Shown piece after piece: positions 16,721 to 40,789 of a DNA stretch of 64,000 nucleotides. Source of the stretch: Planctomycetota bacterium (GTDB lineage Bacteria > Planctomycetota > MHYJ01 > WSZJ01); NCBI GenBank assembly GCA_038060895.1, contig JBBTCT010000001.1, positions 96,001-160,000 on the forward strand. The letters are read 5' to 3'. Below the pieces are notes generated by a model. It saw only the letters and a program-made list of their open reading frames with translations, searched no databases and had not been told where the DNA came from. Made by a program: the position numbers and the translations under genes. Within the stretch, counting starts at the first letter, position 1, and the number at the start of each line of letters is the position of its first letter.

Positions 16721-17137
16721 ATGCCACCGCTCAAATCCGCCGGATATTCGACTGTCATCCCGTTCCTCGCTGCGAGTGACGTCGAGAAGGCGCTGTCGTT
16801 CTACGAAGCGGTGTTCGGGCTTCGCCGCACGAACGTCAACATTCAGGACGGGAGAATCGTCCACTCGGAAATGGAAAGCGGCGGCGACATCGTGCTGATG
16901 GTCGCCCCCGATGCGATCCACTCCGAGCTGAACCGGTCCCCGGCGTCCCGCGGCGCCGTCTCGCCTTCGGAGATCTTCGTTTTCGTGGCCGACGCCGACC
17001 GTGCGCACGAACAGGCCCTGCTCCATGGCGGCAAGAGCCTGGCCGCGCCCCGCGATGTCCCCTGGGGCGAGCGGCACGCGCTGATCCAGGATCCCGACGG
17101 GTATCGCTGGCTTGTTTCGCAGAATCTCGGCGCCTGA
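16721..17137 (+). CDS. VOC/glyoxalase (PhnB-like) family protein
   Basis: ALSFYEAVFG, PWGER..IQDPDGYRW. Confidence 0.85.
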   Translation: MPPLKSAGYSTVIPFLAASDVEKALSFYEAVFGLRRTNVNIQDGRIVHSEMESGGDIVLMVAPDAIHSELNRSPASRGAVSPSEIFVFVADADRAHEQALLHGGKSLAAPRDVPWGERHALIQDPDGYRWLVSQNLGA

Positions 17138-17156
17138 CCCTCTTCAGGAGTTCGCG

Positions 17157-19232
17157 ATGCGCCTCATCTTCGTCACGCTTCTCCTCGCCGCCGTTGCTTC
17201 TGCCGATGCCCTCGACGACACCCTCGCGAAGGTCGGCCTCGAACGCAAAGACCTCGGGTGGCGGCCGCGCGGATACTGGAACCGGTACCCGCAGGACATC
17301 CCGTACAAGCTCCGCCACTTCGACGATTGCCTCGCGGAGCCGCTTTCGGTCGTCAACGTCGCGAGGACGCTCGGCAACTCGGAGAAGCTCTTCCTCGACC
17401 CCGTCGCGCTCGCGAAGCCCGCGGAGAAGTCCGACGGCGCCCTTTACAAGGCCGCGTTCGCCCTCGGCGTCGAGCGCAGGATCGGAAGCTTCCGCGCGTA
17501 CTCGGCGAATCTCGTCGCGAAGGACACCGACATCGTCGAAGCGCTTCTTGAAGTCCTGCGCGACTCAGGCCGTCCGGACAAGCTGGTGACGTTTGGCAGC
17601 GAGTCACCGTACCCGGCCATCCGCAAGGACCTCGAGACCGCGGCCGCCGCCATTCCCGCCGCCGCCCGCCCGATCCTCGGCCGCCTCGTTCTCAACGCGC
17701 TCGACGCGCACCGCTGGACGAAGCTGGCCCTTCGAAACGTCCCCCTCGAGAAGCGCGTCGCGGCCTGTGCCCGCCTCGAGCTGGGCGTCGAGAACACCGA
17801 CGCGCTCGACTTCGAGCCCGCCGTCGACGACGTCGCGAAGGCATGGGACGAACCGTCGATGTGGTACGCGGGGCTCAAGTGCGTCGCGGCGCTCGACGAA
17901 GCGCGCCTGGCGCTGGGGAAGATAGCGGAAGCGCCGGGGCCGTTCGTGTTCGACTGGAAGTCGCCATACGGCTGGGTGCGCTTCCGCGGCACGGGAGACG
18001 ACGCGATCGACGCCGCCGACTCGTTCCTGATCGTGGATTTCGGGGGGAAGGACTCGTGGAAGGGGCCCGCGGGCGCGAATGACGCACTGCGTCACATTGC
18101 CCTGGCGCTGGATCTCGCCGGAAACGACACGTACAAGTCGGACGGCCCGGCGCAGGGCGCGGGGCTGTGCGGAATCGGCGTGCTCGTCGACGTGGCGGGC
18201 GACGACGACTACGCGGCGGAATGCTGCGCGCAGGGATTCGGCCAGCTCGGGATGGGCGTCCTCGCCGACCTGGACGGGAAGGATTCGTACTTCGTGAAAT
18301 TCCAGGGGCAGGGGGCCGCGTTCCTCGGCGTTGGAGAACTCCTCGAAATCGCCGGAGACGACACCTACGACCTCTGGTGCCACGGGCAGGGCTACGGCGC
18401 CGTGGGCGGCGTCGGCGTGCTGGCCGACCGCGCGGGGAACGACAGGTACGTCGCCGAGCGCGACCCCAACATCACCGGGCGGCCTTCCTACCACAGCGAG
18501 CTCAAGATCTCCGTCTCCGAGGCCCAGGGGTGCGGCATGGGTCGCCGCGGCGACGGCGCCGACGGACACTCGTGGGCCGGCGGGCTTGGCGCTCTCCTCG
18601 ACGCTTCCGGCGACGACAGCTACACGGCCGGCAACTGGTGCATGGGCACCGGCTACTGGTTCGGGACCGGCGTCCTCTGGGACGGCGGCGGCAACGACCA
18701 CTTCCGAGGCAGCGTCTGGTCCCAGGCCACCGGCGCGCACTTCTGTATCGGCGCGCTCGTCGACGAGGCCGGGAACGACTGGCACGTCGCGATGGACGGC
18801 GCCGTGAACTCGGTCGGCTTTGCCCACGACTTCACCGTCGCCCTGCTGGTCGACGCCGCCGGCGACGACACCTATGAGTCCGCGAACGGCCCCGCCACTT
18901 CCATCAATCGCTCCGTCGCCATGCTGCTCGACCTCGCCGGCGACGACACCTACGTCATGGCCGCCGGCAACCGCCCCGGCACCGCCGTGTTCGACGAGAA
19001 GTTCCGCGACCGCTCCGGCGGCGCTACGTACTTCGCCGACGCTTCCTCCATAGGCCTCTTCCTCGATGTCGGCGGCAGCGATAAGTACAACTCCCGCGAA
19101 GAGAGCAACTTCTCCTGGCTCGATCCTCCCGACTCTCCCAACCCCTCCGTGCGCAACTGGTCCGTCGGGGTCGACCGGGCGGATGGCACGGTTTCGCTCG
19201 ATCCAATCCCGGAGAAAACGCCGCGCAAATGA
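17157..19232 (+). CDS. Secreted protein with about 12 D-x-x-G-x-D-x-Y glycine-rich repeats
   Basis: Signal peptide; DLAGNDTY, DVAGDDDY, DRAGNDRY, DASGDDSY and similar; AGGAG SD. Confidence 0.75.
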   Translation: MRLIFVTLLLAAVASADALDDTLAKVGLERKDLGWRPRGYWNRYPQDIPYKLRHFDDCLAEPLSVVNVARTLGNSEKLFLDPVALAKPAEKSDGALYKAAFALGVERRIGSFRAYSANLVAKDTDIVEALLEVLRDSGRPDKLVTFGSESPYPAIRKDLETAAAAIPAAARPILGRLVLNALDAHRWTKLALRNVPLEKRVAACARLELGVENTDALDFEPAVDDVAKAWDEPSMWYAGLKCVAALDEARLALGKIAEAPGPFVFDWKSPYGWVRFRGTGDDAIDAADSFLIVDFGGKDSWKGPAGANDALRHIALALDLAGNDTYKSDGPAQGAGLCGIGVLVDVAGDDDYAAECCAQGFGQLGMGVLADLDGKDSYFVKFQGQGAAFLGVGELLEIAGDDTYDLWCHGQGYGAVGGVGVLADRAGNDRYVAERDPNITGRPSYHSELKISVSEAQGCGMGRRGDGADGHSWAGGLGALLDASGDDSYTAGNWCMGTGYWFGTGVLWDGGGNDHFRGSVWSQATGAHFCIGALVDEAGNDWHVAMDGAVNSVGFAHDFTVALLVDAAGDDTYESANGPATSINRSVAMLLDLAGDDTYVMAAGNRPGTAVFDEKFRDRSGGATYFADASSIGLFLDVGGSDKYNSREESNFSWLDPPDSPNPSVRNWSVGVDRADGTVSLDPIPEKTPRK

Positions 19233-19348
19233 GATGTCGAAGTTGGCGTTCCAGGCCCGTTCGCGTTGTAAGATTGCTTTCCTCAGATGTAACACCAAGG
19301 GCGTCCGTCCGTCCCTCCTTCATACCCCTCCTCTGCCCGGAGCCTCCC

Positions 19349-20377
19349 ATGCGCTTCGCACTCCCCGTCGCACTTCTCCTCGCGCTTCCCGCCCTCGCCC
19401 AGACGCCGAAGCAGGTGCCCATCAAGAAGGGCGTCAACGAAGTGGACACGGCCGAGGGGAAGTACTGGCTGGACATTCCGAACAACTACGACCCGAAGAA
19501 GCCGATGCCGGTGATCTGTTTCCTGCACGGGAAGACTGTTGACCTGAAGGCGGACAACGCGCGCGGGCAGCTGGACAACGCGTTCGTCATCCAGATGAAG
19601 AAGCGCGGCTACATTGCGGTGGCGCCGGTGATGCCTCCGGCGCACCGGCCGCACTGGTTTGAGAACGGGAACTCTTATCCGTTCATGGAGACGTGGCTGA
19701 CGGACCTGCACTCGAAGGTGAACGTGCAGTACATCGTCTGCAGCGGGTTCAGCGCCGGCGCGAACTACACGATGCACTACGGTCAGCACCGTACTTACCA
19801 CGCGTGGTTCTCGGGATACCTCGTGATGGCGGGCGGGTGTCCTGTCGACAAAGGAGCGCCGGAGCTGATCCGGAAGAAGCCGATCTGGCTCGGATGCGGC
19901 GACCAGGACAACGACATGTACGACGACAAGATGAACACGACCGGCGGCGCGCGGCTGACCTCGGCCGACCTCAAGGCCAACGGGTTCGACAGCTACTACG
20001 ACGAGTTCCCGAAGGTCGGGCACACGATGGACCAGAAAATGGTCGAGAAGGCGCTCGTTTTCCACGACGCCAACCAGGGGAACTTCGCCGCGATCGGCGC
20101 GTGCATGAGGGCCAGCCAGATCAAGGACAAGGAGCCGGCGAAAGCGCTCGTGCTCCTTGAGATGTCTGCGGCCGGAAAGCTGAAAGCGAACGAGTACTGG
20201 GCGAAGAAGGTCGCCGAAACCACGACGGCCATCGTCGATGCCGCGAAGAAGGCCATTGCCGCTGCGGTCGCGATGACGGACGAAGCGAAGAAGAAAGAGG
20301 AGCTGGGGAAGCTCGGGCAGGCATGGGTCGGGACGAGCGTTGAGAAGCTCGTGAAGGATGCGATGGCCAAGAAGTAG
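19349..20377 (+). CDS. Secreted alpha/beta hydrolase (esterase/peptidase-like)
   Basis: Signal peptide; PVICFLHG, GFSAG nucleophile elbow, GDQD, VGH. Confidence 0.8.
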   Translation: MRFALPVALLLALPALAQTPKQVPIKKGVNEVDTAEGKYWLDIPNNYDPKKPMPVICFLHGKTVDLKADNARGQLDNAFVIQMKKRGYIAVAPVMPPAHRPHWFENGNSYPFMETWLTDLHSKVNVQYIVCSGFSAGANYTMHYGQHRTYHAWFSGYLVMAGGCPVDKGAPELIRKKPIWLGCGDQDNDMYDDKMNTTGGARLTSADLKANGFDSYYDEFPKVGHTMDQKMVEKALVFHDANQGNFAAIGACMRASQIKDKEPAKALVLLEMSAAGKLKANEYWAKKVAETTTAIVDAAKKAIAAAVAMTDEAKKKEELGKLGQAWVGTSVEKLVKDAMAKK

Positions 20378-20436: not shown

Positions 20437-21567
20437 CTACTTGATCTTCCGGAATTCGGCGTTGCCGCCCTGTTCCCAGACGACCCCGACCGATTTCCCG
20501 GCCGAAAGGCTCGGGTACGTCGCTTCGGCGCCGTCGGCGCTCATCCGCTCCGGTTTGGCTCCCGCCGCGGACGTCTGCATCCATATCCCGGGCTTCCCGC
20601 CTCGCGCGTCTTCCCAGGCGATGTAGAAGACGCCGGTGCTGTCAGCGCCTGCGCTGGGATGGCCCTGCACGCCCTCGGGCTTCTCGGGCAGGAGCGCCTC
20701 GGGTGGAAGCTGGCCGCCTGCCGATGACACCGCCCACATCACGTCGCGGTCCTTGCCGCCCGGATTCCCCATCCAGCCCACCGCAAACCTCTTTCCATCG
20801 TCGCTCACGGCGACCGTGGGGGCGTCCATGGGTCAGTCGGGTATCTTTGTGTCCTTCTTGTTCACGCGCGCCGGCGGCGCGAACGACTTTCCTCCGTCAC
20901 GCGACATCGTCAGGAAGATCTCGCGGCTCGAGTCGTCCGCCATCTCCCGGTAGGCAACGAACGGGTTTCCTTTGCCGTCAATCGCAATGCCCGGCGCACA
21001 GCAGGGACAAACGGGCGGTGAAATCTTCACGTTCTTCCCCACCTTGCCGCCCGACACCTTCGCATACCAGAGGCTGTTCCCCTTCCCCGCCCGGTCGTCG
21101 AGCCAGACGACGTGCGCGTCCCCGGCGTCCGATACAGCGAGCTGGTGAAGCGATTCGGCGGCGGAACCCGGCGTGTCGTTGACCTGCACGGGCTTCTCGA
21201 ACGTCTTGCCGCCGTCCTTCGAGATCGCAAGCCAGAGCTCGCACTTCGGATACTTCTCCTTCTGTTTCTCCGGGTCAAAGCAAAGCGGCGCGGTGATGAA
21301 GACGTCCTTCTTCCCATCGACCCCGATACGCGGCCCGCGCTGCTTCCCGCCCTGGGCCTTACCCTTCACGTCGATCGCGACCGCGGGGGCGCTCCAGGTC
21401 TTGCCGCCGTCCGTGGAGATCGACAGCTCGATATTCCCGTTGCGCACGAACGTGCAGTAGAACGCGCCGTCGGAATCCTGCGCGAGCTGGGGCTGGGTTG
21501 CGCCGGAGGCGACAGTTTCTGCCACGGCTGCGCTGGCGAGCAACAGGACGGCGAAGAGGCTTCTCAT
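20437..21567 (-). CDS. Secreted BNR/Asp-box beta-propeller (sialidase-like) protein, probable selenoprotein (Sec at TGA 20835-20833, about 376 aa)
   Basis: ORFs 20833-21579 and 20437-20829 are in one frame, joined by GAC-TGA-CCC-ATG-GAC (D-U-P-M-D). Three SxDGGKT/S Asp-boxes; VCPCC motif; hairpin just 3' of the TGA. Confidence 0.8.
20800..20832 (-). promoter_or_regulatory. Candidate bacterial SECIS element
   Basis: On the minus strand after UGA: CCCAUGGACGCCCC-CACG-GUCGC-CGUG, so a G-U-initiated loop starts 19 nt after the UGA. Confidence 0.5.
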
Positions 21568-21575
21568 GCCCGAAA

Positions 21576-23084
21576 TCATACCCCGGAAGCCGCCTGGATG
21601 GCACCCGAGGAAATGAGATCGCGGACGCGTTCGATGTCGGCCGACATCGCCCGGTCGCGATCCAGCCGCCTTGACTTCGAGCGGATCAGCCGGTGCACGC
21701 GCTCGAGGGCGGCGCTGGACCGGAGCGGACGGTGAAACTCGATTCCCTGCGCCGCGGCGATCAGTTCGATCGCGACGACACGCTCGACGTTGTCGAGGAT
21801 CCGGCGGAGCTTCAACACCGCCGTCACCCCCATGGAGACATGGTCTTCCTTGTTCGCGGACGTCGGGATCGAATCGACGGAGGCAGGGTGGGCGAACACC
21901 TTGTTCTCGCTGACCAGCGCGGCCGCAACGACCTGCAGGATCATCATCCCGCTGTTCAGGCCGCTCTCGCGGGAGAGGAAGGGCGGGAGGCCGCTCAGGT
22001 CCGGATTGACGAGGTTCTCCGTGCGTCGCTCGCTGATCGCGCCGAACTCGCAGATGCCGAGCGCGACGAAGTCGGCGGCCTGCGCGACCGGCTGGCCGTG
22101 AAAGTTGCCGCCGGAGAGAATCGCGCCGTCGTCCGGGAAGACAAGCGGGTTGTCGGTCGCGGAGTTCATCTCAATTTCGACCACGCGCTCCGCGAACGCC
22201 ATCGCGTCCCGCGCGGCGCCGTGCACCTGGGGCACGCACCGGAGCGAGTACTGGTCCTGCACCTTGCCGCAGTTCTTGTGCGACACGCGGATCGCGCTGC
22301 CTCTCATGAGATCCCGAACCCGCTTCGCCACCAGCCCCTGCCCCGGGTGAGGACGCACCTCCTGGATCCGCGCGTCGAACGCCGACGTCGTCCCCTTCAG
22401 CGCGTCCAGCGTCAGCGCCGCCGCGATGTCCGAAGCGTCGGCCAGCCGGCGGGCGCGCAGGAGGCTGATGGCGAGAAGCGACGACATGATCTGCGTCCCG
22501 TTGATGAGCGAGATTCCCTCTTTCGCGCCGAGCTGCAGCGGTTTCAGTCCCGCGAACTTCAAGGCCACCAGGCCGGGGACTCTCCTTCCGGACGGAAGGA
22601 ACGCCTCGCCTTCCCCGATGAGGACCAGCGCCAGGTGCGCCAGCGGCGCCAGGTCGCCCGACGCCCCGACGCTTCCCTGCTCCGGAATCACCGGGACGAC
22701 GCCCGAATTGGCGAGGTGAACGAGCTGGGCGACAACCCGGCGACGGACGCCCGAGTGACCGCGCACCAGCGTGTTCGCGCGAAGAAGGACGGCCACCCGC
22801 GCTTCGGCGGACGACAGCGGCGCGCCCACCCCCACGGCATGGCTACGCAGCAGGTTGAGCTGCAGGTCGCGGATCTGGGCGTCCGGAATCCGGACATTCG
22901 CAAGCCGCCCGAACCCCGTGTTCACCCCGTAGATCGCTTTCCCGGACGCCAGCAGCTTCTCGACCACTTTCCTCGCCGCGTCCACTCGCTTCCATGCCGC
23001 CGGAGCCACCCGCGCGGCATCGCCCCCGAGGAAGCGCGCGACGTCGTCCAGCGAGACTGACCGACCGTCGAGGCGAATGGGCAT
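21576..23084 (-). CDS. hutH: Histidine ammonia-lyase
   Basis: YGVNTGFG, GASGDLAPL (MIO), QDQYSLRC, GGNFHG, EDHVSMG. Confidence 0.95.
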   Translation of the reverse strand: MPIRLDGRSVSLDDVARFLGGDAARVAPAAWKRVDAARKVVEKLLASGKAIYGVNTGFGRLANVRIPDAQIRDLQLNLLRSHAVGVGAPLSSAEARVAVLLRANTLVRGHSGVRRRVVAQLVHLANSGVVPVIPEQGSVGASGDLAPLAHLALVLIGEGEAFLPSGRRVPGLVALKFAGLKPLQLGAKEGISLINGTQIMSSLLAISLLRARRLADASDIAAALTLDALKGTTSAFDARIQEVRPHPGQGLVAKRVRDLMRGSAIRVSHKNCGKVQDQYSLRCVPQVHGAARDAMAFAERVVEIEMNSATDNPLVFPDDGAILSGGNFHGQPVAQAADFVALGICEFGAISERRTENLVNPDLSGLPPFLSRESGLNSGMMILQVVAAALVSENKVFAHPASVDSIPTSANKEDHVSMGVTAVLKLRRILDNVERVVAIELIAAAQGIEFHRPLRSSAALERVHRLIRSKSRRLDRDRAMSADIERVRDLISSGAIQAASGV

Positions 23085-23488: not shown

Positions 23489-24685
23489 CTACTCGTCCGC
23501 GACGCGCGGGATGCTGTCGCCCAGGATCTTGACGGCCGCTTCCATCTTTTTCTCCAGCTCTTCCCACTCCGCGCCGGGCTTGCGCCCCGCCGCGAGTTCC
23601 CGAACGTGGTCGAGCATCCGCATCGCCACCTTCTGGACCGATTCGGCCCTTGCGAAATAGGCTTCGGGCAGCTCGCCCGAGAGGTTGAGAGCCGCCTCCA
23701 TCAGCCGCCCTGAAATGTCGGTGGAGGCATCCGCCCAGCCTTCAGCGTCCGCCGCCGCCTTTTCGCGCCACCCCTTCACTTCCCCGGCAAGTTTCTGAAC
23801 TGTATCGAGGGCCGAATCGACTTTCGCGGCATCGATGATCTGCCCGATCCCGAGGAAATCGAGGTAGTGCTGGAAGTCCTCTTCCGCATCCGCCATCGCG
23901 AGGTCGAACTCCTTGGCATCGGGGCGCTTTGCGGCGGCCTTGCTGAAGTGGATCGTCGCCTGGTCGAGCAGCGGACAGACCTTCTGGAGAATCCAGTCAA
24001 TGCGCTGTTTGCCGCGGCACTCCATCCAGTAGAGCTCGGCTTTGCGGCGGCGGCCGTTGCGTTCCTTGACGGCATTGATCCGGCGGTCGGCGTCGCCGCG
24101 GAAATCCGGCCATCCGGCGTCGGCGGCGGCGCCCAGTTTCGCCCACTTGCGGCGGAGGGCGTCCAGGACGCGCCCGATGCGCGCCATGTCCTCGTACACC
24201 TCGCGGTCGGCCCTCGCGCGCATCGCAGGCAGGTCTTTCGCGGTGCCGACGTGAACGTCCGCACTGGCATGGGCCTGCCCGTCATCTCCCGGCGCATTCT
24301 CGTCGGGCCACGAAACGACCACGCGGTATTGACCCGGCCACGTCGCAAGCTCCGAGGACCCCATTTTGGCGCTGATCGAGCCGTCGCTGGAACGGACGTC
24401 GTCTTTGTCCACGTCGATCAGTTCCTCTTCGAAATCCGGATCCCCGGGAGCGACCAGGGCGGGCGGGATCTTGTACTGCCGGACGTAATAGAGGCGCAGG
24501 TCGAATCGCGTCCCCTCGGGCTTCGATGTCCTGGCGGCGAAAACGAAGGCCGACTGCCCCCGGGACTCCTCGAGCCGGACCTCCGCGCCCGTCACGGCGG
24601 AGGGCGACTCCTCCGCGAAGCCGCGAGAGGCGTACCCCGCCACGACCACGGCCACCAGCATCAGAACTCTCTGCATCAGTCTCAT
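23489..24685 (-). CDS. Hypothetical secreted protein
   Basis: Signal peptide (GFA-EE), GGAGG SD, helical C-terminal half. Confidence 0.7.
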   Translation of the reverse strand: MRLMQRVLMLVAVVVAGYASRGFAEESPSAVTGAEVRLEESRGQSAFVFAARTSKPEGTRFDLRLYYVRQYKIPPALVAPGDPDFEEELIDVDKDDVRSSDGSISAKMGSSELATWPGQYRVVVSWPDENAPGDDGQAHASADVHVGTAKDLPAMRARADREVYEDMARIGRVLDALRRKWAKLGAAADAGWPDFRGDADRRINAVKERNGRRRKAELYWMECRGKQRIDWILQKVCPLLDQATIHFSKAAAKRPDAKEFDLAMADAEEDFQHYLDFLGIGQIIDAAKVDSALDTVQKLAGEVKGWREKAAADAEGWADASTDISGRLMEAALNLSGELPEAYFARAESVQKVAMRMLDHVRELAAGRKPGAEWEELEKKMEAAVKILGDSIPRVADE

Positions 24686-24733
24686 GCTACACCCTCCCGG
24701 AATCCGTCGAGCCGGCAATCCAGCGGGGGCTCC

Positions 24734-24785
24734 GCCCTGAGCGAGCCCCCTGAGCGCCATCGGCGCGAAGGGGCGAGTCGAAGGG
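24734..24785. repeat. REP-like palindrome (CCCTTCGACTCGC...GCTCGCTCAGGGC on the minus strand)
   Basis: Resembles the widespread CTTCGACTCGC/CGCTCAGG intergenic palindromes; single copy in this window. Confidence 0.45.
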
Positions 24786-24869
24786 AATTTCGCTTGTTGC
24801 ACCTCAGGAGCCTCCCTAGACTTTCCCCCCCTACCAACGAATTCGCCCGCGAAAGGGTCGGTTCTTCCC

Positions 24870-26198
24870 ATGATCGTCATGAAATTCGGCGGCACCTCGG
24901 TCGGCTCGGCCGACCGCATCATGAGCTGCGCCGAGATCGTCAAAAAGAACCTGCCGCGATCGCCGATCGTCGTGGTCAGCGCGCACTCGAAAGTGACCGA
25001 CATGCTGATCGCCGTGGCCCGGAAGGCCGTCAAGGGTCAGCCTGAGATCGACGAGATCCGGGAACGCCACCTGAAGATCATCGCAGACCTGGGACTGAAG
25101 CCGTCCCTGGTGGAGAAACTGCTCAACGAACTGGAAGTGCTTCTCAAGGGAATCTCCCTGGTCAAAGAGCTGACCCCGCGCACGCTCGACTACGTCCTCA
25201 GCTTCGGCGAGCGCATGAGCGTCCGGACCGTCACCGCAGCCTTCGAAAAAGCCGGTCTCCCCGCCACCGCGGTGGACGCCTTCGATCTCGGGCTCATCAC
25301 CGATTCGAATTTCGGAAGCGCCGTCCCGCTCGCCGAGGCGGACAACATCATCGCGTGGAACGTGAAGCGCTTCGAGAAGCTCCCCGTCGTCACGGGGTAC
25401 ATCGGCAAGAACAAGGAAGGTGACATCACGACGCTCGGCCGCAACGGGAGCGATTACACGGCGGCGATCCTCGGCGCGGCGTGCGCCGCGGAGGAGATCC
25501 AGATCTGGAGCGACGTCGACGGCGTCTGCAGCGCGGACCCGCAGATCGTGAAGGGCTCGCACTCGATCGACGAGATGTCGTTCGACGAGGCCAGCGAACT
25601 CGCGTACTACGGCGGGCGGATCCACCCGGCGACGCTCGTGCCGGCGGTGAAGAAGGACATCCCGATCCGCCTGAAGAACACCTACAAACCTGAAAACCCC
25701 GGCACCCTGATCCGGCGCAAAGTCGTGGTGAAAGGGATCGTGAAGAGCGTGGTCTACAAGGAGGACCTCTTCATGATCGACCTCATGAGCACGCGCATGC
25801 TCCAGCACCACGGATTCATGTCCCGGATCTTCGAGATCTTCGGCAAGTACGGGATCGTCGTGGACATGATCGCGACGAGCGAAGTGTCGGTCTCGCTGAC
25901 GGTAGACAGCGATCGAAACCTGGAACCCGCGATCAAGGAGCTGCAGGAGTTCGCGGACGTCCAGGTCGAGGGAGGCAAGGCGATCATCTGCGTCGTCGGC
26001 GAGGGGATCCGCAACCACATGGGCGTCCCGGGCCAGGTCTTCGGCGCGCTGGCGGGGGCGGGGATCGGCGTCCAGATGATCAGCCAGTCCGCAATGAACA
26101 TCAATATCGCGTTCCTGGTGAACAACGACCAGGTCGCCCTCGCCGTGGGGACGCTCCACGAGACGTTTTTCGGGAAGGGCGAAGCGACAGGCGGCTAG
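24870..26198 (+). CDS. lysC: Aspartate kinase
   Basis: MKFGGTSVG, TTLGRNGSDY, WSDVDG, two ACT domains. Confidence 0.95.
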   Translation: MIVMKFGGTSVGSADRIMSCAEIVKKNLPRSPIVVVSAHSKVTDMLIAVARKAVKGQPEIDEIRERHLKIIADLGLKPSLVEKLLNELEVLLKGISLVKELTPRTLDYVLSFGERMSVRTVTAAFEKAGLPATAVDAFDLGLITDSNFGSAVPLAEADNIIAWNVKRFEKLPVVTGYIGKNKEGDITTLGRNGSDYTAAILGAACAAEEIQIWSDVDGVCSADPQIVKGSHSIDEMSFDEASELAYYGGRIHPATLVPAVKKDIPIRLKNTYKPENPGTLIRRKVVVKGIVKSVVYKEDLFMIDLMSTRMLQHHGFMSRIFEIFGKYGIVVDMIATSEVSVSLTVDSDRNLEPAIKELQEFADVQVEGGKAIICVVGEGIRNHMGVPGQVFGALAGAGIGVQMISQSAMNINIAFLVNNDQVALAVGTLHETFFGKGEATGG

Positions 26199-38598: not shown

Positions 38599-38869
38599 AG
38601 GGTGGACTTCATGTCGCGCTCTCACGCAGTGCCGGGACGATGTTCGGCTGCTCGGGATCAGGCATGCGACGAAAACATACCAGCCGCGGCGCTTCAGATG
38701 TACTCCCTTGAGGAAGAAGAAGCCTGGACCATTGCGCAGTTGCGCGAGGGCGAGCCGTTTCCTCCGTCGAAAGTAGAGTGCGACAAGATCACCCTTGGCC
38801 GTCCGGACCACGCCGGCCTGTAGCGCGTCGCCTTGCCCTGCGCCCGCGCGCCGCTTACGCTCTTTCGCG

Positions 38870-40789
38870 ATGCAGGACATCTTCAATATCGTCATCGGGA
38901 CCGCGGGGCACATCGACCACGGCAAGTCCACGCTGGTCCGCAAGCTGACCGGCATCGATCCCGACCGCCTCCCGGAGGAAAAGGAGCGCGGCCTCACCAT
39001 CGACCTCGGCTTCGCGCCCTTCACGCTCAAGGACGGCCGCCGAATCGGGCTCATCGACGTCCCGGGGCACGAGAAGTTCGTGAAGAACATGGTCGCGGGG
39101 GCAACGTCGCTCGACGGCGTCATCCTCGTCATCGCGGCGGACGACGGGATCATGCCGCAGACGCGGGAGCACCTGAACATCCTGCGGATCCTGGACGTGA
39201 AGCGCGGGATGGTGGCACTGACGAAGATCGACATCGCGGAGCCGGACATGCTGGAGCTGGTGGAGGACGAGATCCGGCAGATGCTGCAGGGGACGTTCCT
39301 CGAGGCGGCGCCGATTTTCCGGGTCAGTTCGCACACCGGCGCGGGTTACGAAGCCCTGATCGACGGGATCAACAAACTGGCGGTCGCGACGCCGCCGCGC
39401 ACGACCGAGGGCGTATTCCGGATGCCGATCCAGCGCGTCTTTTCGGCCAAGGGGTTCGGGACGATAGCCACAGGAGTCCCGATCACCGGGAAGGCGAAGC
39501 TCGGCGACACTGTTGAAGTCCTCCCGCTCGGAAAATCGTCGCGCATCCGCGGCCTCCAGGCCTACAAGGGCGATGTCACCGAAATCCGCGCCGGACACTC
39601 TTCCGCCGTCAACCTCTCGGACATCGATCACGCCGAGGTCATCCGCGGCATGGTCATGGCCACCCCCGGATACCTGCACGCCGCCGATCACGTCAACGCG
39701 CGCTTCCGCTTCCTGAACGAGGAAGTTGGCCGGCTGAAGAACGGCGCCGCGGTGCGCCTGCACACGGGGACGGTGGAAGGCCTCGGGACGCTCAACCTCG
39801 TCGAAGGGCAGGATCTCGTAGCGGGAACCGACGCGCTGATCCAGATCCGGCTCGCCGAGCCGGTCGTCGTCGCGGCCAACGACCTTTTTGTGCTGCGCCT
39901 CCAGTCGCCGACGGTGGTTCTCGGAGGCGGGCGAATCCTGTCATCGACGCTCGGCCGGCCGAAGATGAACCGGGCAAAGCTGGTGGAAGATCTCAAGGGA
40001 GCGGAAGCGTCATTGGGTGACTCACGCAAGACCCTCGAGCACCTGATCCGCCGGGCCGGCTCGGACCCCGTGTCGCTCGACTCGATCGCGAAGCAGTCGC
40101 TTCTTCCTATCGCTCAGGCATGGGACCTCGTCGGCGGCCTCAAGCAGAAAGGGCTGGTCACGGAGCTGCCCGAGACGAAGCGGCTCCTGCACCGCGACGG
40201 CCTTGCCGCCGCTGCGGGCGAAATCACGAGGACGCTCGAGGAGTTCCACAAGACGAATCCGGTTTCGGTCGGCATGGAGAAGATTCCTCTTCGCACCGCC
40301 AGCGGCCTGGACCCGGAGGCGTTCGAGGCGGGGCTTGCGCTCGCGCGCAATTCGGGGGGCGCGGCCGAGGAGCGCGGGCTGTGGCGCAAAGCGGCCCACG
40401 CGGTCGCGCTGACTGCGGAGCAGGAGAAACTGATCGAGGCGGCGCGCAAGCTGCTGCTTGCCGACAAGTACGCGACGCCTCGCGTGGACGAAATGGCCGG
40501 GAAGCTCGGGAAGACGCCGCAACAGGTGGACAAGCTTCTCAAGCTGATGATGCAGACCGGCGAGATCGTGAAGCTGAAGGACGACATCCTCCTGCACCGG
40601 GACGCCATTGCGGAAGCGGTGGAGACGGCGCGGAAACTGTGTACGGAAAAGGGAGAAGTCGGCCCGAGCGAGTTCCGCGACGCGATGAAGACCAGCCGGA
40701 AGTACGTGATTCCGCTGCTGGAGCATCTGGATGCAATCGGGGTGACGGTCCGGCAGGGGGACAAGCGGGTGCTCCGGGCTTCCCCGTGA
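38870..40789 (+). CDS. selB: Selenocysteine-specific translation elongation factor
   Basis: GTAGHIDHGKS, GLTIDLGF, DVPGHE; C-terminal SECIS-binding winged helix TSRKYVIPLLEHLD. Confidence 0.95.
   Translation: MQDIFNIVIGTAGHIDHGKSTLVRKLTGIDPDRLPEEKERGLTIDLGFAPFTLKDGRRIGLIDVPGHEKFVKNMVAGATSLDGVILVIAADDGIMPQTREHLNILRILDVKRGMVALTKIDIAEPDMLELVEDEIRQMLQGTFLEAAPIFRVSSHTGAGYEALIDGINKLAVATPPRTTEGVFRMPIQRVFSAKGFGTIATGVPITGKAKLGDTVEVLPLGKSSRIRGLQAYKGDVTEIRAGHSSAVNLSDIDHAEVIRGMVMATPGYLHAADHVNARFRFLNEEVGRLKNGAAVRLHTGTVEGLGTLNLVEGQDLVAGTDALIQIRLAEPVVVAANDLFVLRLQSPTVVLGGGRILSSTLGRPKMNRAKLVEDLKGAEASLGDSRKTLEHLIRRAGSDPVSLDSIAKQSLLPIAQAWDLVGGLKQKGLVTELPETKRLLHRDGLAAAAGEITRTLEEFHKTNPVSVGMEKIPLRTASGLDPEAFEAGLALARNSGGAAEERGLWRKAAHAVALTAEQEKLIEAARKLLLADKYATPRVDEMAGKLGKTPQQVDKLLKLMMQTGEIVKLKDDILLHRDAIAEAVETARKLCTEKGEVGPSEFRDAMKTSRKYVIPLLEHLDAIGVTVRQGDKRVLRASP

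What the first reader, a model, noticed from the sequence alone, without database searches (positions are those of the whole stretch)
20437..21567. Hidden selenoprotein: secreted BNR beta-propeller with CxCC plus U-P-M-D
Seen: the ORF caller splits this gene in two, but both halves are in one frame separated only by TGA (…ATA CCC GAC TGA CCC ATG GAC GCC… = I-P-D-U-P-M-D-A). A hairpin with a GU-initiated loop starts 19 nt downstream, and selB is at 38870. Recalled family knowledge, not searched: related sialidase-like propellers carry C-E/P-C-C followed by a C-P-M-D-G motif, so the TGA sits on a conserved Cys. Inference: Sec245 and the three Cys of VCPCC form a soft-metal-binding or redox site on an exported propeller, not a sialidase site. 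I do not know of this fold among classical selenoprotein families.
Basis: partly seen in the sequence, partly recalled or inferred. Interest (0 to 1): 0.88.

Follow-up and report, generated by a model that had tools for sequence, protein, structure and literature searches.

The report
Uncatalogued selenocysteine beta-propeller protein
The "stop" codon that splits this exported propeller-shaped protein almost certainly encodes selenocysteine at a position where relatives have cysteine, which points to a selenium protein family missing from current lists and marks the likely active site of proteins that databases label sialidases.

Summary
One minus-strand gene (20437-21579) carries a single in-frame TGA at 20833-20835, giving I-P-D-U-P-M-D-A.

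Evidence that the TGA encodes selenocysteine:
- All 27 full-length proteins among the 120 closest database clusters have Cys in this column. The other 93 end exactly one residue before it.
- The same column is TGA in 13 of 22 classifiable genome loci across 7 families of the phylum, and in 55 of 70 metagenome loci. Every other locus has TGC or TGT.
- The reading frame stays conserved after the TGA.
- The genome encodes selA, selB (in the window), tRNA-Sec and selD.
- An independent run's contig bridges the TGA unchanged.

A 5-bp hairpin with loop CGUGA starts 19 nt after the codon. Sec forms show synonymous-site constraint there (GCC-GUG) and more SECIS-like hairpins than Cys forms or recoded controls. 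Overall stability and fixed-register covariation tests gave no support.

The AlphaFold model is a seven-bladed Asp-box propeller, not a six-bladed sialidase. The family is absent from a 2026 catalogue of 119 prokaryotic selenoprotein families.

Function is inferred only. Sec249 and C191/C193/C194 probably form a soft-metal or redox site at the propeller centre.

The parts
20437..21579 (-). Single coding sequence of the selenoprotein. It is 380 codons from ATG 21579, or 376 from ATG 21567, with a TAG stop at 20437-20439.
   Evidence: Searches show one frame with one internal TGA. One search shows full-length Cys homologues of 366-402 aa aligning end to end. One search gives one seven-bladed propeller at pLDDT 89.2 and pTM 0.89.
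21520..21579 (-). Predicted Sec-type signal peptide, residues 1-20 (MISGMRSLFAVLLLASAAVA, then E). It has no twin-arginine and no lipobox Cys.
   Evidence: Read from the sequence. Homologues have hydrophobic N-termini. The AF2 model shows a low-confidence N-terminal helix 4-16. No signal-peptide predictor was run.
20998..21009 (-). C-P-C-C motif (C191, C193, C194), in the loop before the innermost strand of blade 4.
   Evidence: Invariant in 23 of 23 rows and in 22 of 22 phylum-wide loci. 32 of 43 full-length superfamily representatives, the window's own protein included, have all three Cys together with Cys at column 249.
20833..20835 (-). In-frame TGA, read as selenocysteine 249.
   Evidence: sequence; Cys or TGA in this column in every relative examined; Sec machinery; an independent contig bridges the codon with 0 differences.
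20824..20835 (-). U-P-M-D motif, in the loop before the innermost strand of blade 5.
   Evidence: C/U249, P250, M251 and D252 are conserved in 22 of 22 loci. Wider clades keep C-P but vary the third residue (H, D, N).
20800..20814 (-). Minimal bSECIS-like hairpin: GUCGC (20814-20810), loop CGUGA (20809-20805), GCGAC (20804-20800). The stem starts at the 19th nt after the UGA.
   Evidence: Synonymous-site constraint on GCC-GUG is specific to Sec forms. The stability and fixed-register covariation tests were negative.
21394..21417 (-). Asp-box 1 (S-x-D-G-G-K-T-W, residues 55-62). Further Asp-boxes lie at residues 120-127 (21199-21222) and 226-233 (20881-20904).
   Evidence: Pfam BNR PF02012, E 7.1e-8 at residues 54-63. 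The repeats are visible.
38795..40789 (+). selB, the selenocysteine-specific elongation factor. It is the trans-acting decoder, about 18 kb away in the same window.
   Evidence: TIGR00475 at 344.2 bits against a cut-off of 242.25.

Best explanation
This is one gene for an exported, seven-bladed Asp-box beta-propeller of about 360 mature residues.

Decoding. The internal UGA (window 20833-20835) is read as selenocysteine by SelB and Sec-tRNA(Sec), with help from a short hairpin (GUCGC-CGUGA-GCGAC) that begins 19 nt downstream inside the reading frame. What is shown: the UGA lies on a column that is otherwise always Cys, the same UGA is kept across deeply diverged relatives, the downstream frame is conserved, and the Sec machinery is present.

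Active site (inferred). Sec249, together with C191, C193, C194 and M251, sits at the mouth of the propeller's central channel and forms a selenolate/thiolate-rich centre. My preferred reading, at about 0.4, is that this centre binds a soft metal such as Cu(I) or catalyses its redox conversion in the periplasm. That would resemble the CxCC-plus-Met copper cluster of CopG. A metal-free selenol/thiol oxidoreductase is nearly as likely, at about 0.35.

The confidence value given applies to the selenoprotein claim, not to the functional reading.
For: Sequence: one frame with one TGA.

Sec/Cys pairing:
- Of the 120 best protein clusters, 93 end exactly at the residue before the column and 27 are full length, all with Cys.
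- In alignment A1, 17 of 17 full-length rows have Cys and 5 of 5 short rows stop before it.

Other genomes: 27 matches in 24 of 401 phylum genomes.
- 22 loci were classifiable: 13 TGA (own locus included; 7 GTDB families; identity down to 31-35%) and 9 TGC/TGT.
- P-M-D follows in frame in every case.

Metagenomes: of 78 loci, 70 contain the column. These split 55 TGA, 11 TGC and 4 TGT, with no other codon.

Tree: 68 rows with the column masked need at least 10 Sec/Cys changes, of which 8 are forced by well-supported branches.

Sec machinery:
- tRNA-Sec at 71.7 bits, and ARAGORN calls SeC(tca).
- selA at 541 bits.
- selD at 364 bits, itself carrying one in-frame TGA.
- selB in the window.
- selA is over its cut-off in 11 of the 12 other TGA-form genomes. 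The exception is only 67% complete.
- The two near-complete genomes without selA (99% and 100% complete) carry only Cys forms.

TGA is an ordinary stop in this genome: hutH ends on TGA at 21576-21578, and its family alignment runs to residue 499 of 502.

Not an assembly error: a contig from a different study spans 20760-21289 with 0 differences.

SECIS:
- Hairpins with a perfect stem of at least 7 bp and a GU-containing loop starting 16-37 nt after the codon occur in 27 of 56 Sec forms, 3 of 21 Cys forms and 18% of synonymously recoded Sec forms.
- Ala codon +8 is GCC in 46 of 48 Sec forms against 7 of 15 Cys forms. Val codon +9 is GTG in 42 of 48 against 4 of 13.

Site:
- CxCC and C/U-P-M-D are invariant in 22 of 22 loci.
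- They co-occur across the superfamily.
- By the DSSP blade pattern, both lie in the loop before the innermost strand of adjacent blades.

Metal lead:
- 3 of 20 genome loci, all Cys forms, sit inside CusA/CzcA-type RND plus P1B-ATPase operons.
- A review passage states that CopG binds a tetranuclear Cu cluster through CxCC and two Met, and that it is linked to copA/cusCBA (PMC7558416).
Against: No selenium incorporation has been measured.

SECIS evidence is mixed:
- The 76-nt fold is only modestly better than shuffles (z -1.83, 11 of 200 as good).
- Overall folding energy of Sec forms is not lower than synonymous recodings (mean z +0.42, 41 of 56 above 0), while Cys forms average -0.68.
- One fixed 8-bp register shows no covariation (74.5% paired against 74.2% shuffled).
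- The conserved A-V-A-V...D-G peptide in GC-rich codons partly creates the stem by itself. 13 of 21 Cys forms also pass the 5-bp hairpin test.
- Relatives are not independent, so the Fisher tests overstate significance.

Function:
- No heavy-metal genes lie beside the window's gene. Its neighbours are hutH and unannotated ORFs.
- None of the 83 ORFs flanking the metagenome loci is a metal-efflux gene.
- The ATPase in one of the three metal operons scores best as a Zn/Cd/Pb type, so copper is not singled out.
- Met251 is not conserved outside this clade, where CPH, CPD and CPN occur.
- The Sec-to-CxCC distance could not be measured.
Confidence: 0.88

Rival explanations
1. The protein is a genuine selenoprotein, but the Sec/CxCC centre is a metal-free redox site. 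Sec249 acts as the nucleophile and the CxCC cysteines resolve the resulting selenylsulfide. The substrate would be a periplasmic oxyanion, (per)sulfide, peroxide or disulfide.
For: Most catalogued selenoproteins are thiol-type oxidoreductases with Sec next to Cys (review text). Invariant Arg and acidic residues surround the site (R81, R84, R163, R211, E142, D161, D252) and could bind an anion. Thioredoxin/DsbD-like and AhpC-TSA genes neighbour two loci. The window's own locus has no metal genes nearby.
Against: No conserved reductant partner or substrate-pathway gene appears across 20 genome loci and 70 metagenome loci. The CxCC-plus-Met arrangement and the three heavy-metal operons point toward metal. 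Nothing here distinguishes the two readings directly.
Confidence: 0.35
2. The TGA is a real stop. The locus would be two genes, or a freshly broken pseudogene, or an assembly error.
For: ORF callers and public annotations treat relatives as proteins of about 250 aa (names). C-terminal pieces starting at M251 exist as separate database entries (P0164, P0187, P0249).
Against: The same TGA is kept in 13 of 22 genome loci and 55 of 70 metagenome loci, with the downstream frame conserved. Cys homologues are single proteins. Half a propeller would not close, and AF2 folds the read-through as one seven-bladed domain. An independent contig carries the TGA. TGA forms go with selA.
Confidence: 0.03
3. 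The UGA is read through without selenium, for example by near-cognate Trp or Cys insertion or under an alternative genetic code.
For: The overall-stability and covariation tests gave no support for a SECIS.
Against: TGA ends hutH immediately upstream, so the code is standard. The column is Cys, never Trp or Gly, in all non-TGA relatives. The full Sec machinery is present and co-occurs with TGA forms. Synonymous sites are constrained in the loop region only in TGA forms.
Confidence: 0.03
4. The protein is a carbohydrate-active enzyme (a sialidase, or a hydrolase or lyase like GH145, PL42 or PL25), and the four Cys/Sec residues are structural, forming a disulfide and a selenylsulfide in an exported protein.
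For: Pfam BNR_2 scores 38.1 bits against a cut-off of 31.4. Public names include 'sialidase family protein'. Structural matches include GH145 (5mum, Z 29.3), PL42 (7esk, Z 26.2) and PL25 (5uam, Z 25.9).
Against: Sequence matches to solved sialidases cover only the Asp-box region, residues 52-141 (best E 2.7e-7). Identity to all structural matches is 4-16% in the rows listed. Sialidases align at TM of about 0.46-0.54 against 0.64-0.67 for the seven-bladed GH145-type enzymes and CylK (0.57-0.64 for the PLL/PHL lectins). From my own knowledge, using costly Sec for a purely structural bond is unknown. No carbohydrate-utilisation genes are conserved nearby.
Confidence: 0.06

Closest known systems
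Bacterial Sec/Cys selenoprotein families decoded by UGA plus an in-ORF SECIS hairpin and SelB (prototype E. coli fdhF; the bSECIS consensus criteria are recalled, not taken from a call)
   Same: An in-frame UGA aligns with Cys in homologues. A hairpin with a G/U-containing apical loop follows within the permitted distance. selA, selB, selC and selD are present. Sec and Cys have interconverted repeatedly on the tree.
   Different: The protein fold and family are not among the 119 families or subfamilies listed in the 2026 review. No NCBIfam selenoprotein model matches. The protein is Sec-pathway exported and is a beta-propeller, whereas most listed families are thioredoxin-like.
CopG (DUF411), a periplasmic copper-resistance protein
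   Same: It has a CxCC motif plus methionine, is periplasmic, and some homologues of the present family sit in cus/copA-type operons.
   Different: CopG has a thioredoxin-like fold, whereas this protein is a seven-bladed propeller. No DUF411 match appeared. The fourth ligand here is Sec or Cys from a separate loop. The window's own gene has no copper context. This is an analogy of mechanism only, not membership.
Seven-bladed propellers: the C-terminal domain of CylK (7ron), GH145 (5mum/5mul), PL42 (7esk), PL25 (5uam), and PLL/PHL lectins
   Same: The overall fold matches: VIA-align Z 33.3 (rmsd 3.0, 327 aligned), 29.3, 26.2 and 25.9, with Foldseek TM of about 0.6-0.67.
   Different: Sequence identity is 10-13%. 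Their sequences were not checked for a CxCC or C/U-P-M-D site. A shared fold does not establish function.
GH33 sialidases (Pfam clan with BNR_2)
   Same: Asp-box repeats are present. BNR_2 is above its cut-off. An R-G-P-R motif resembles the sialidase F-R-I-P motif (this resemblance is recalled, not tested).
   Different: Seven blades are predicted instead of six. Sequence matches to solved sialidases cover only residues 52-141. Structural alignments are poorer than to the seven-bladed GH145-type enzymes, CylK and the lectins.
Catalogued metal-handling selenoproteins, such as the SO_0444-family Cu/Zn efflux transporter (UxC), the YHS-domain protein (GxU), CopZ-family proteins and MbdU, as listed in the 2026 review table
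   Same: Sec sits in a Cys-rich presumed metal site. This is precedent that Sec can serve as a metal ligand outside Mo/W and Ni enzymes.
   Different: The folds and families are unrelated. None is a propeller.

Membership tests
Bacterial selenoprotein (UGA/bSECIS/SelB-decoded) | In-frame UGA at a position occupied by Cys in homologues | tested here: met
   27 of 27 full-length proteins have Cys. TGC/TGT loci number 9 of 22 and 15 of 70, and all remaining loci have TGA.
Bacterial selenoprotein (UGA/bSECIS/SelB-decoded) | Coding conservation continues in frame downstream of the UGA | tested here: met
   P-M-D/S-A/G... follows in all 13 + 55 TGA loci. The read-through folds as one propeller.
Bacterial selenoprotein (UGA/bSECIS/SelB-decoded) | SECIS hairpin downstream with a G/GU in the apical loop at a suitable distance (criteria recalled from the bSECISearch model) | tested here: inconclusive
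   The hairpin is present in the window. 49 of 56 Sec forms pass at a 5-bp stem, against 13 of 21 Cys forms and 65.5% of recoded controls. At 7 bp the figures are 27 of 56, 3 of 21 and 18%. Synonymous sites are constrained in Sec forms. The stability and fixed-register covariation tests were negative.
Bacterial selenoprotein (UGA/bSECIS/SelB-decoded) | selA, selB, selC and selD present in the genome | tested here: met
   selA is also present in 11 of the 12 other TGA-form genomes.
Bacterial selenoprotein (UGA/bSECIS/SelB-decoded) | Selenium physically incorporated at the UGA position | not testable with these tools
   Needs 75Se labelling, ICP-MS or peptide mass spectrometry.
Any of the 119 catalogued prokaryotic selenoprotein families | Listed in the catalogue or matched by its domain model | tested here: not met
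   The table of PMC13188914 (section 7, parts 1-2, read) has no BNR, sialidase or propeller entry. The terms occur 0 times in that review, in deep-Sep and in BSepDB main texts, and 0 times in the supplements that are held as text (the BSepDB file was cut when stored). NCBIfam gives only a sub-threshold PDIAV_lipo match.
GH33 sialidase | Six-bladed propeller | tested here: not met
   DSSP shows seven four-strand blades. The best matches are proteins I recall as seven-bladed: CylK, GH145 and the PLL lectins (the blade counts come from recall, not a call). Sialidases align at TM 0.46-0.54. This rests on a predicted model.
GH33 sialidase | Catalytic Arg triad, Tyr/Glu nucleophile pair and Asp acid/base | not tested
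   No residue-level structural superposition was available. Sequence matches to solved sialidases cover only residues 52-141.
CopG (DUF411) | Thioredoxin-like DUF411 domain | tested here: not met
   No such Pfam match. The fold is a propeller.
CopG (DUF411) | CxCC motif with nearby Met that binds a Cu cluster | tested here: inconclusive
   CxCC is invariant and M251 is conserved in this clade, but Met is replaced by H, D or N in other clades. Metal binding was not tested.
CopG (DUF411) | Genetic linkage to copA/cusCBA | tested here: inconclusive
   3 of 20 genome loci show it, all Cys forms. None of the 83 metagenome flank ORFs does, and it is absent from the window.

The most novel reading that the evidence does not exclude
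Sec249, C191/C193/C194 and M251 assemble a selenium-bridged multinuclear soft-metal cluster, for example copper, at the centre of a seven-bladed propeller. That would be a previously undescribed selenium metallocentre and a new class of periplasmic metal oxidoreductase or detoxifier. It would be widespread in soil and groundwater Planctomycetota and other phyla, and it is currently mislabelled as sialidase.
Probability: 0.25. Interest if true: 0.85.

Novelty: new member of a known kind. Interest (0 to 1): 0.62.

Why it matters
- It would add a selenoprotein family in a fold class, an exported beta-propeller, that is not represented among the 119 families and subfamilies listed in 2026.
- Among the closest relatives the Sec form is the majority: 93 of 120 protein clusters and 55 of 70 metagenome loci. 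Public databases therefore hold mostly truncated entries of about 250 aa named 'sialidase family protein' or 'hypothetical'.
- The Sec position marks the functional residue of a large uncharacterised family. Together with the CxCC motif it gives a concrete, testable hypothesis of a soft-metal or redox centre.
- Annotation pipelines could recover hundreds of split genes with one profile model.

Tried and rejected
1. Fixed-register covariation of an 8-bp stem on 50 Sec-form sequences gave no signal. Subclades use shifted registers, so a single consensus structure does not fit.
2. Folding energy against synonymous recoding showed Sec forms are not more stable (mean z +0.42), while Cys forms average -0.68. 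Overall stability cannot be used as SECIS evidence in this GC-rich gene.
3. I looked for a conserved gene partner and found none. hutH is adjacent only within the window's genus (L039, L059). FecR-domain genes lie upstream in 8 metagenome loci. Heavy-metal efflux genes appear in 3 of 20 genome loci. No ThiS/MoaD-type neighbour appeared, but my ORF picking dropped ORFs under 80-90 aa, so that test is weak.
4. I could not measure the Sec-to-CxCC distance, because model coordinates are not exposed (one search lists no model file).
The natural Cys homologue P0002 returned only 'sialidase family protein' clusters and gave no functional lead.
6. The PDB sequence search returned only Asp-box-local matches to sialidases.
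7. Reads: contigs of run X3 do not cover the TGA, and X1 may be the source sample. The RNA run X9 gave one 218-nt contig over 20486-20697 plus fragments. That is only a weak hint that the part after the TGA is transcribed.
8. The Pfam Tli3 match (32.1 bits) and the NCBIfam PDIAV_lipo match (33.6 bits, below its cut-off of 90) look like generic propeller/Asp-box similarity, and I did not pursue them.
9. Five of the 27 genome matches (L030, L032-L035) and 8 of the 78 metagenome loci did not yield the motif with my pattern. These were partial matches or contig ends, and they are left unclassified.
Full report
**The observation.** On the minus strand a single reading frame runs from ATG 21579 to TAG 20437-20439. 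A second in-frame ATG lies at 21567. The frame is interrupted once, by TGA at 20833-20835. The mechanical ORF list splits it into a 248-aa piece and a 130-aa piece. Read through, the context is I-P-D-U-P-M-D-A, with U at residue 249, or 245 counted from the second ATG. V-C-P-C-C lies at residues 190-194. The upstream gene is histidine ammonia-lyase (690 bits to PRK09367 and 682 bits to TIGR01225 hutH). It ends on a TGA that overlaps the first ATG (ATGA, 21576-21579). TGA is therefore an ordinary stop in this organism.

**Is the TGA a selenocysteine codon?** Five lines of evidence agree.

1. Sec/Cys pairing in protein databases.
   - The word-indexed search returned 775 relatives.
   - Among the 120 best clusters, 93 end exactly at the residue aligned to position 248. 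The other 27 are full length, and all 27 have Cys in the column.
   - In alignment A1, all 17 full-length homologues show C-P-M-D/S and all 5 short ones stop just before it.
   - Several short entries carry public names such as 'sialidase family protein', so they are annotated as truncated proteins.
2. DNA of other species.
   - A read-through-aware search of 401 genomes of the same phylum found 27 matches in 24 genomes.
   - My motif scan could classify 22 of them: 13 have TGA (own locus included) and 9 have TGC or TGT. P-M-D follows in frame in every case.
   - The 13 TGA genomes span 7 GTDB families and identities down to 31-35%.
   - Five partial matches stayed unclassified.
3. Metagenomes. 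Of 78 related loci, 70 contain the column: 55 TGA, 11 TGC and 4 TGT, with nothing else.
4. Machinery.
   - The genome has tRNA-Sec (71.7 bits, anticodon tca), selA (541 bits) and selD (364 bits, itself with an in-frame TGA). selB lies in this window at 38795-40789.
   - selA is present above its cut-off in 11 of the 12 other TGA-form genomes. The exception is only 67% complete.
   - The two near-complete genomes without selA (99% and 100% complete) carry only Cys forms.
5. Assembly error is excluded. A 530-nt contig from a run of a different study covers 20760-21289 with no differences.

A quick maximum-likelihood tree of 68 non-identical, sufficiently complete rows, with the Sec/Cys column masked, needs at least 10 Sec/Cys changes. 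Eight of these are forced by well-supported branches. This is the usual behaviour of a Sec/Cys family.

**The SECIS.** In the window the hairpin is GUCGC (20814-20810), loop CGUGA, GCGAC (20804-20800). The GU is at loop positions 2-3 rather than at the start of the loop. The evidence that this hairpin is selected for is mixed, and I report both sides.

Against:
- The 76-nt fold is only modestly better than shuffles (z -1.83).
- Sec forms are not more stably folded than synonymous recodings (mean z +0.42, n = 56), whereas Cys forms average -0.68 (n = 21).
- One fixed 8-bp register shows no covariation.
- The conserved peptide A-V-A-V-S-x-D-G, written in GC-rich codons, partly makes the stem by itself.

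For:
- A geometry test asked for a perfect stem and a GU-containing loop of 3-14 nt that starts 16-37 nt after the codon. These criteria are recalled from the published bSECIS model.
- At a 7-bp stem it passes 27 of 56 Sec forms, 3 of 21 Cys forms and 18% of recoded Sec forms. At 5 bp it passes 49 of 56, 13 of 21 and 65.5%.
- Two synonymous sites flanking G28-U29 are nearly fixed only in Sec forms. Ala +8 is GCC in 46 of 48 Sec forms against 7 of 15 Cys forms. Val +9 is GTG in 42 of 48 against 4 of 13. Other Ala codons in the same Sec-form sequences are freely GCC or GCG.
- Among the 17 Sec forms with loop CGUGA, stem position 24/34 is U-A in 13, C-G in 3 and unpaired in 1.

Relatives are not independent, so these counts are descriptive only.

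**What the protein is.** The N-terminus reads as a Sec-type signal peptide with no RR and no lipobox (read from the sequence; no predictor was run). AlphaFold2 with alignment A1 gives a confident model (pLDDT 89.2, pTM 0.89) with seven four-stranded blades.

- The best structural matches are the propeller domain of CylK (Z 33.3), GH145 (Z 29.3), lectins and integrin alpha. That these are seven-bladed I recall rather than take from a call. Identity to the listed structural matches is 4-16% overall.
- Sialidases align worse, at TM 0.46-0.54 against about 0.6-0.67.
- Pfam BNR_2 is just above its cut-off (38.1 against 31.4 bits). Sequence matches to solved sialidases cover only the Asp-box region.
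- The 'sialidase' label is therefore a fold-family echo and not a functional assignment.

**The site.** Across 22 phylum-wide loci the invariant residues are R81-G-P-R84, E142, W159-L-D161-x-R163, C191, C193, C194, P196, R211 and C/U249-P-M-D252. In a wider sample of 43 full-length superfamily representatives (the window's protein included), 32 have all three CxCC cysteines together with Cys249. Five have two of the three plus Cys249. Four have neither the CxCC cysteines nor Cys249, and two more keep Cys249 without them. The two motifs therefore largely travel together.

By the DSSP blade pattern, CxCC precedes the innermost strand of blade 4 and U-P-M-D precedes the innermost strand of blade 5. 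These are equivalent positions at the mouth of the central channel. I infer that they form one site, but I could not measure the distance.

**Mechanism.**

- Shown: recoding of UGA at a conserved Cys position in a single exported propeller.
- Inferred: Sec249 is the reactive member of a four-chalcogen centre.
- Preferred reading (about 0.4): a soft-metal site, binding the metal or carrying out its redox conversion. The reasons are as follows.
  - CxCC plus Met is the ligand set of the CopG copper cluster (review passage, PMC7558416).
  - Three of 20 genome loci place Cys-form homologues inside tight operons with CusA/CzcA-family RND pumps and P1B ATPases.
- Against that reading:
  - The window's gene has no such neighbours.
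  - None of the 83 ORFs flanking the metagenome loci is a metal-efflux gene.
  - One of the ATPases looks like a Zn/Cd type.
  - Met251 is clade-specific.
- Nearly as likely (about 0.35): a metal-free selenol/thiol oxidoreductase acting on an anionic substrate. The ring of invariant Arg residues suggests this.

**Novelty.** The 2026 review's table of 119 prokaryotic selenoprotein families and subfamilies has no BNR, sialidase or propeller entry (section 7 parts 1-2 read).

- The terms sialidase, BNR, propeller, glycoside, Planctomyc and neuraminidase occur 0 times in that review, in deep-Sep and in BSepDB main texts.
- A slightly different term set (sialidase, BNR, propeller, glycoside hydrolase, Planctomyc, exo-alpha) was searched in the held supplements. 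It gave 0 hits in the deep-Sep files. In the BSepDB file only 'Planctomyc' occurred, in its genome list, and that file was cut when stored, so its full family list was not seen.
- Three full-text searches found nothing relevant.
- No NCBIfam selenoprotein model matches.

Earlier notes of this scan describe look-alike Sec propellers in other genomes. They are AI leads and not independent support. I re-derived the Sec/Cys evidence here and only partly reproduced the copper context.

**Verdict.** This is a real selenoprotein gene with high confidence. It belongs to an apparently unpublished family, and its function is not yet known.

Noticed in passing
G000:C2:48628-49548 (own genome, outside the window; locus L010): The genome's selD (364 bits) itself contains one in-frame TGA. 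Selenophosphate synthetase is therefore probably also a selenoprotein in this organism.
   Followed up: no
window 21576-21579 and 21576-23084 (-): The stop of histidine ammonia-lyase (hutH) overlaps the first ATG of the propeller gene (ATGA). The hutH-propeller adjacency recurs only in the same genus (L039) and in one close metagenome contig (L059), not in other clades.
   Followed up: partly
L068, L074, L076, L078, L089, L105, L108, L136 (metagenome loci): A FecR-domain protein of roughly 400-490 aa is encoded directly upstream on the same strand in 8 loci of one subclade. This hints at ECF-sigma/anti-sigma control of the propeller gene there.
   Followed up: no
L056:6759-11059 and L057:7045-10560: In two genomes of one family, the Cys-form propeller sits in a tight same-strand operon with CusA/CusB-type or CopA-type genes. 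The operon also holds three conserved ORFs of about 295, 130 and 305-320 aa that match no Pfam or NCBIfam family.
   Followed up: partly
Proteins P0125, P0173, P0252 and others: Giant proteins of 2,000-5,000 aa contain 3-17 separate stretches matching this propeller at about 26-32% identity. None of these long entries carries a CxCC or C-P-M-D motif.
   Followed up: no
Alignment of 43 representatives: Sister clades keep CxCC and C-P but replace Met251 by His, Asp, Asn or Glu (CPH, CPD, CPN). A small group has lost one of the three cysteines (CERC, CDDC, CEKC) while keeping Cys249.
   Followed up: partly
window 17112-19232 (+), 19229-20377 (+), 23489-25033 (-): Three long ORFs flanking the locus (706, 382 and 514 aa) have no Pfam match. 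The 382-aa and 514-aa ORFs also have no NCBIfam match.
   Followed up: no
window 20486-20697: A 218-nt contig from a metatranscriptome run (X9) matches the part of the gene downstream of the TGA with one difference. DNA carry-over cannot be excluded.
   Followed up: partly
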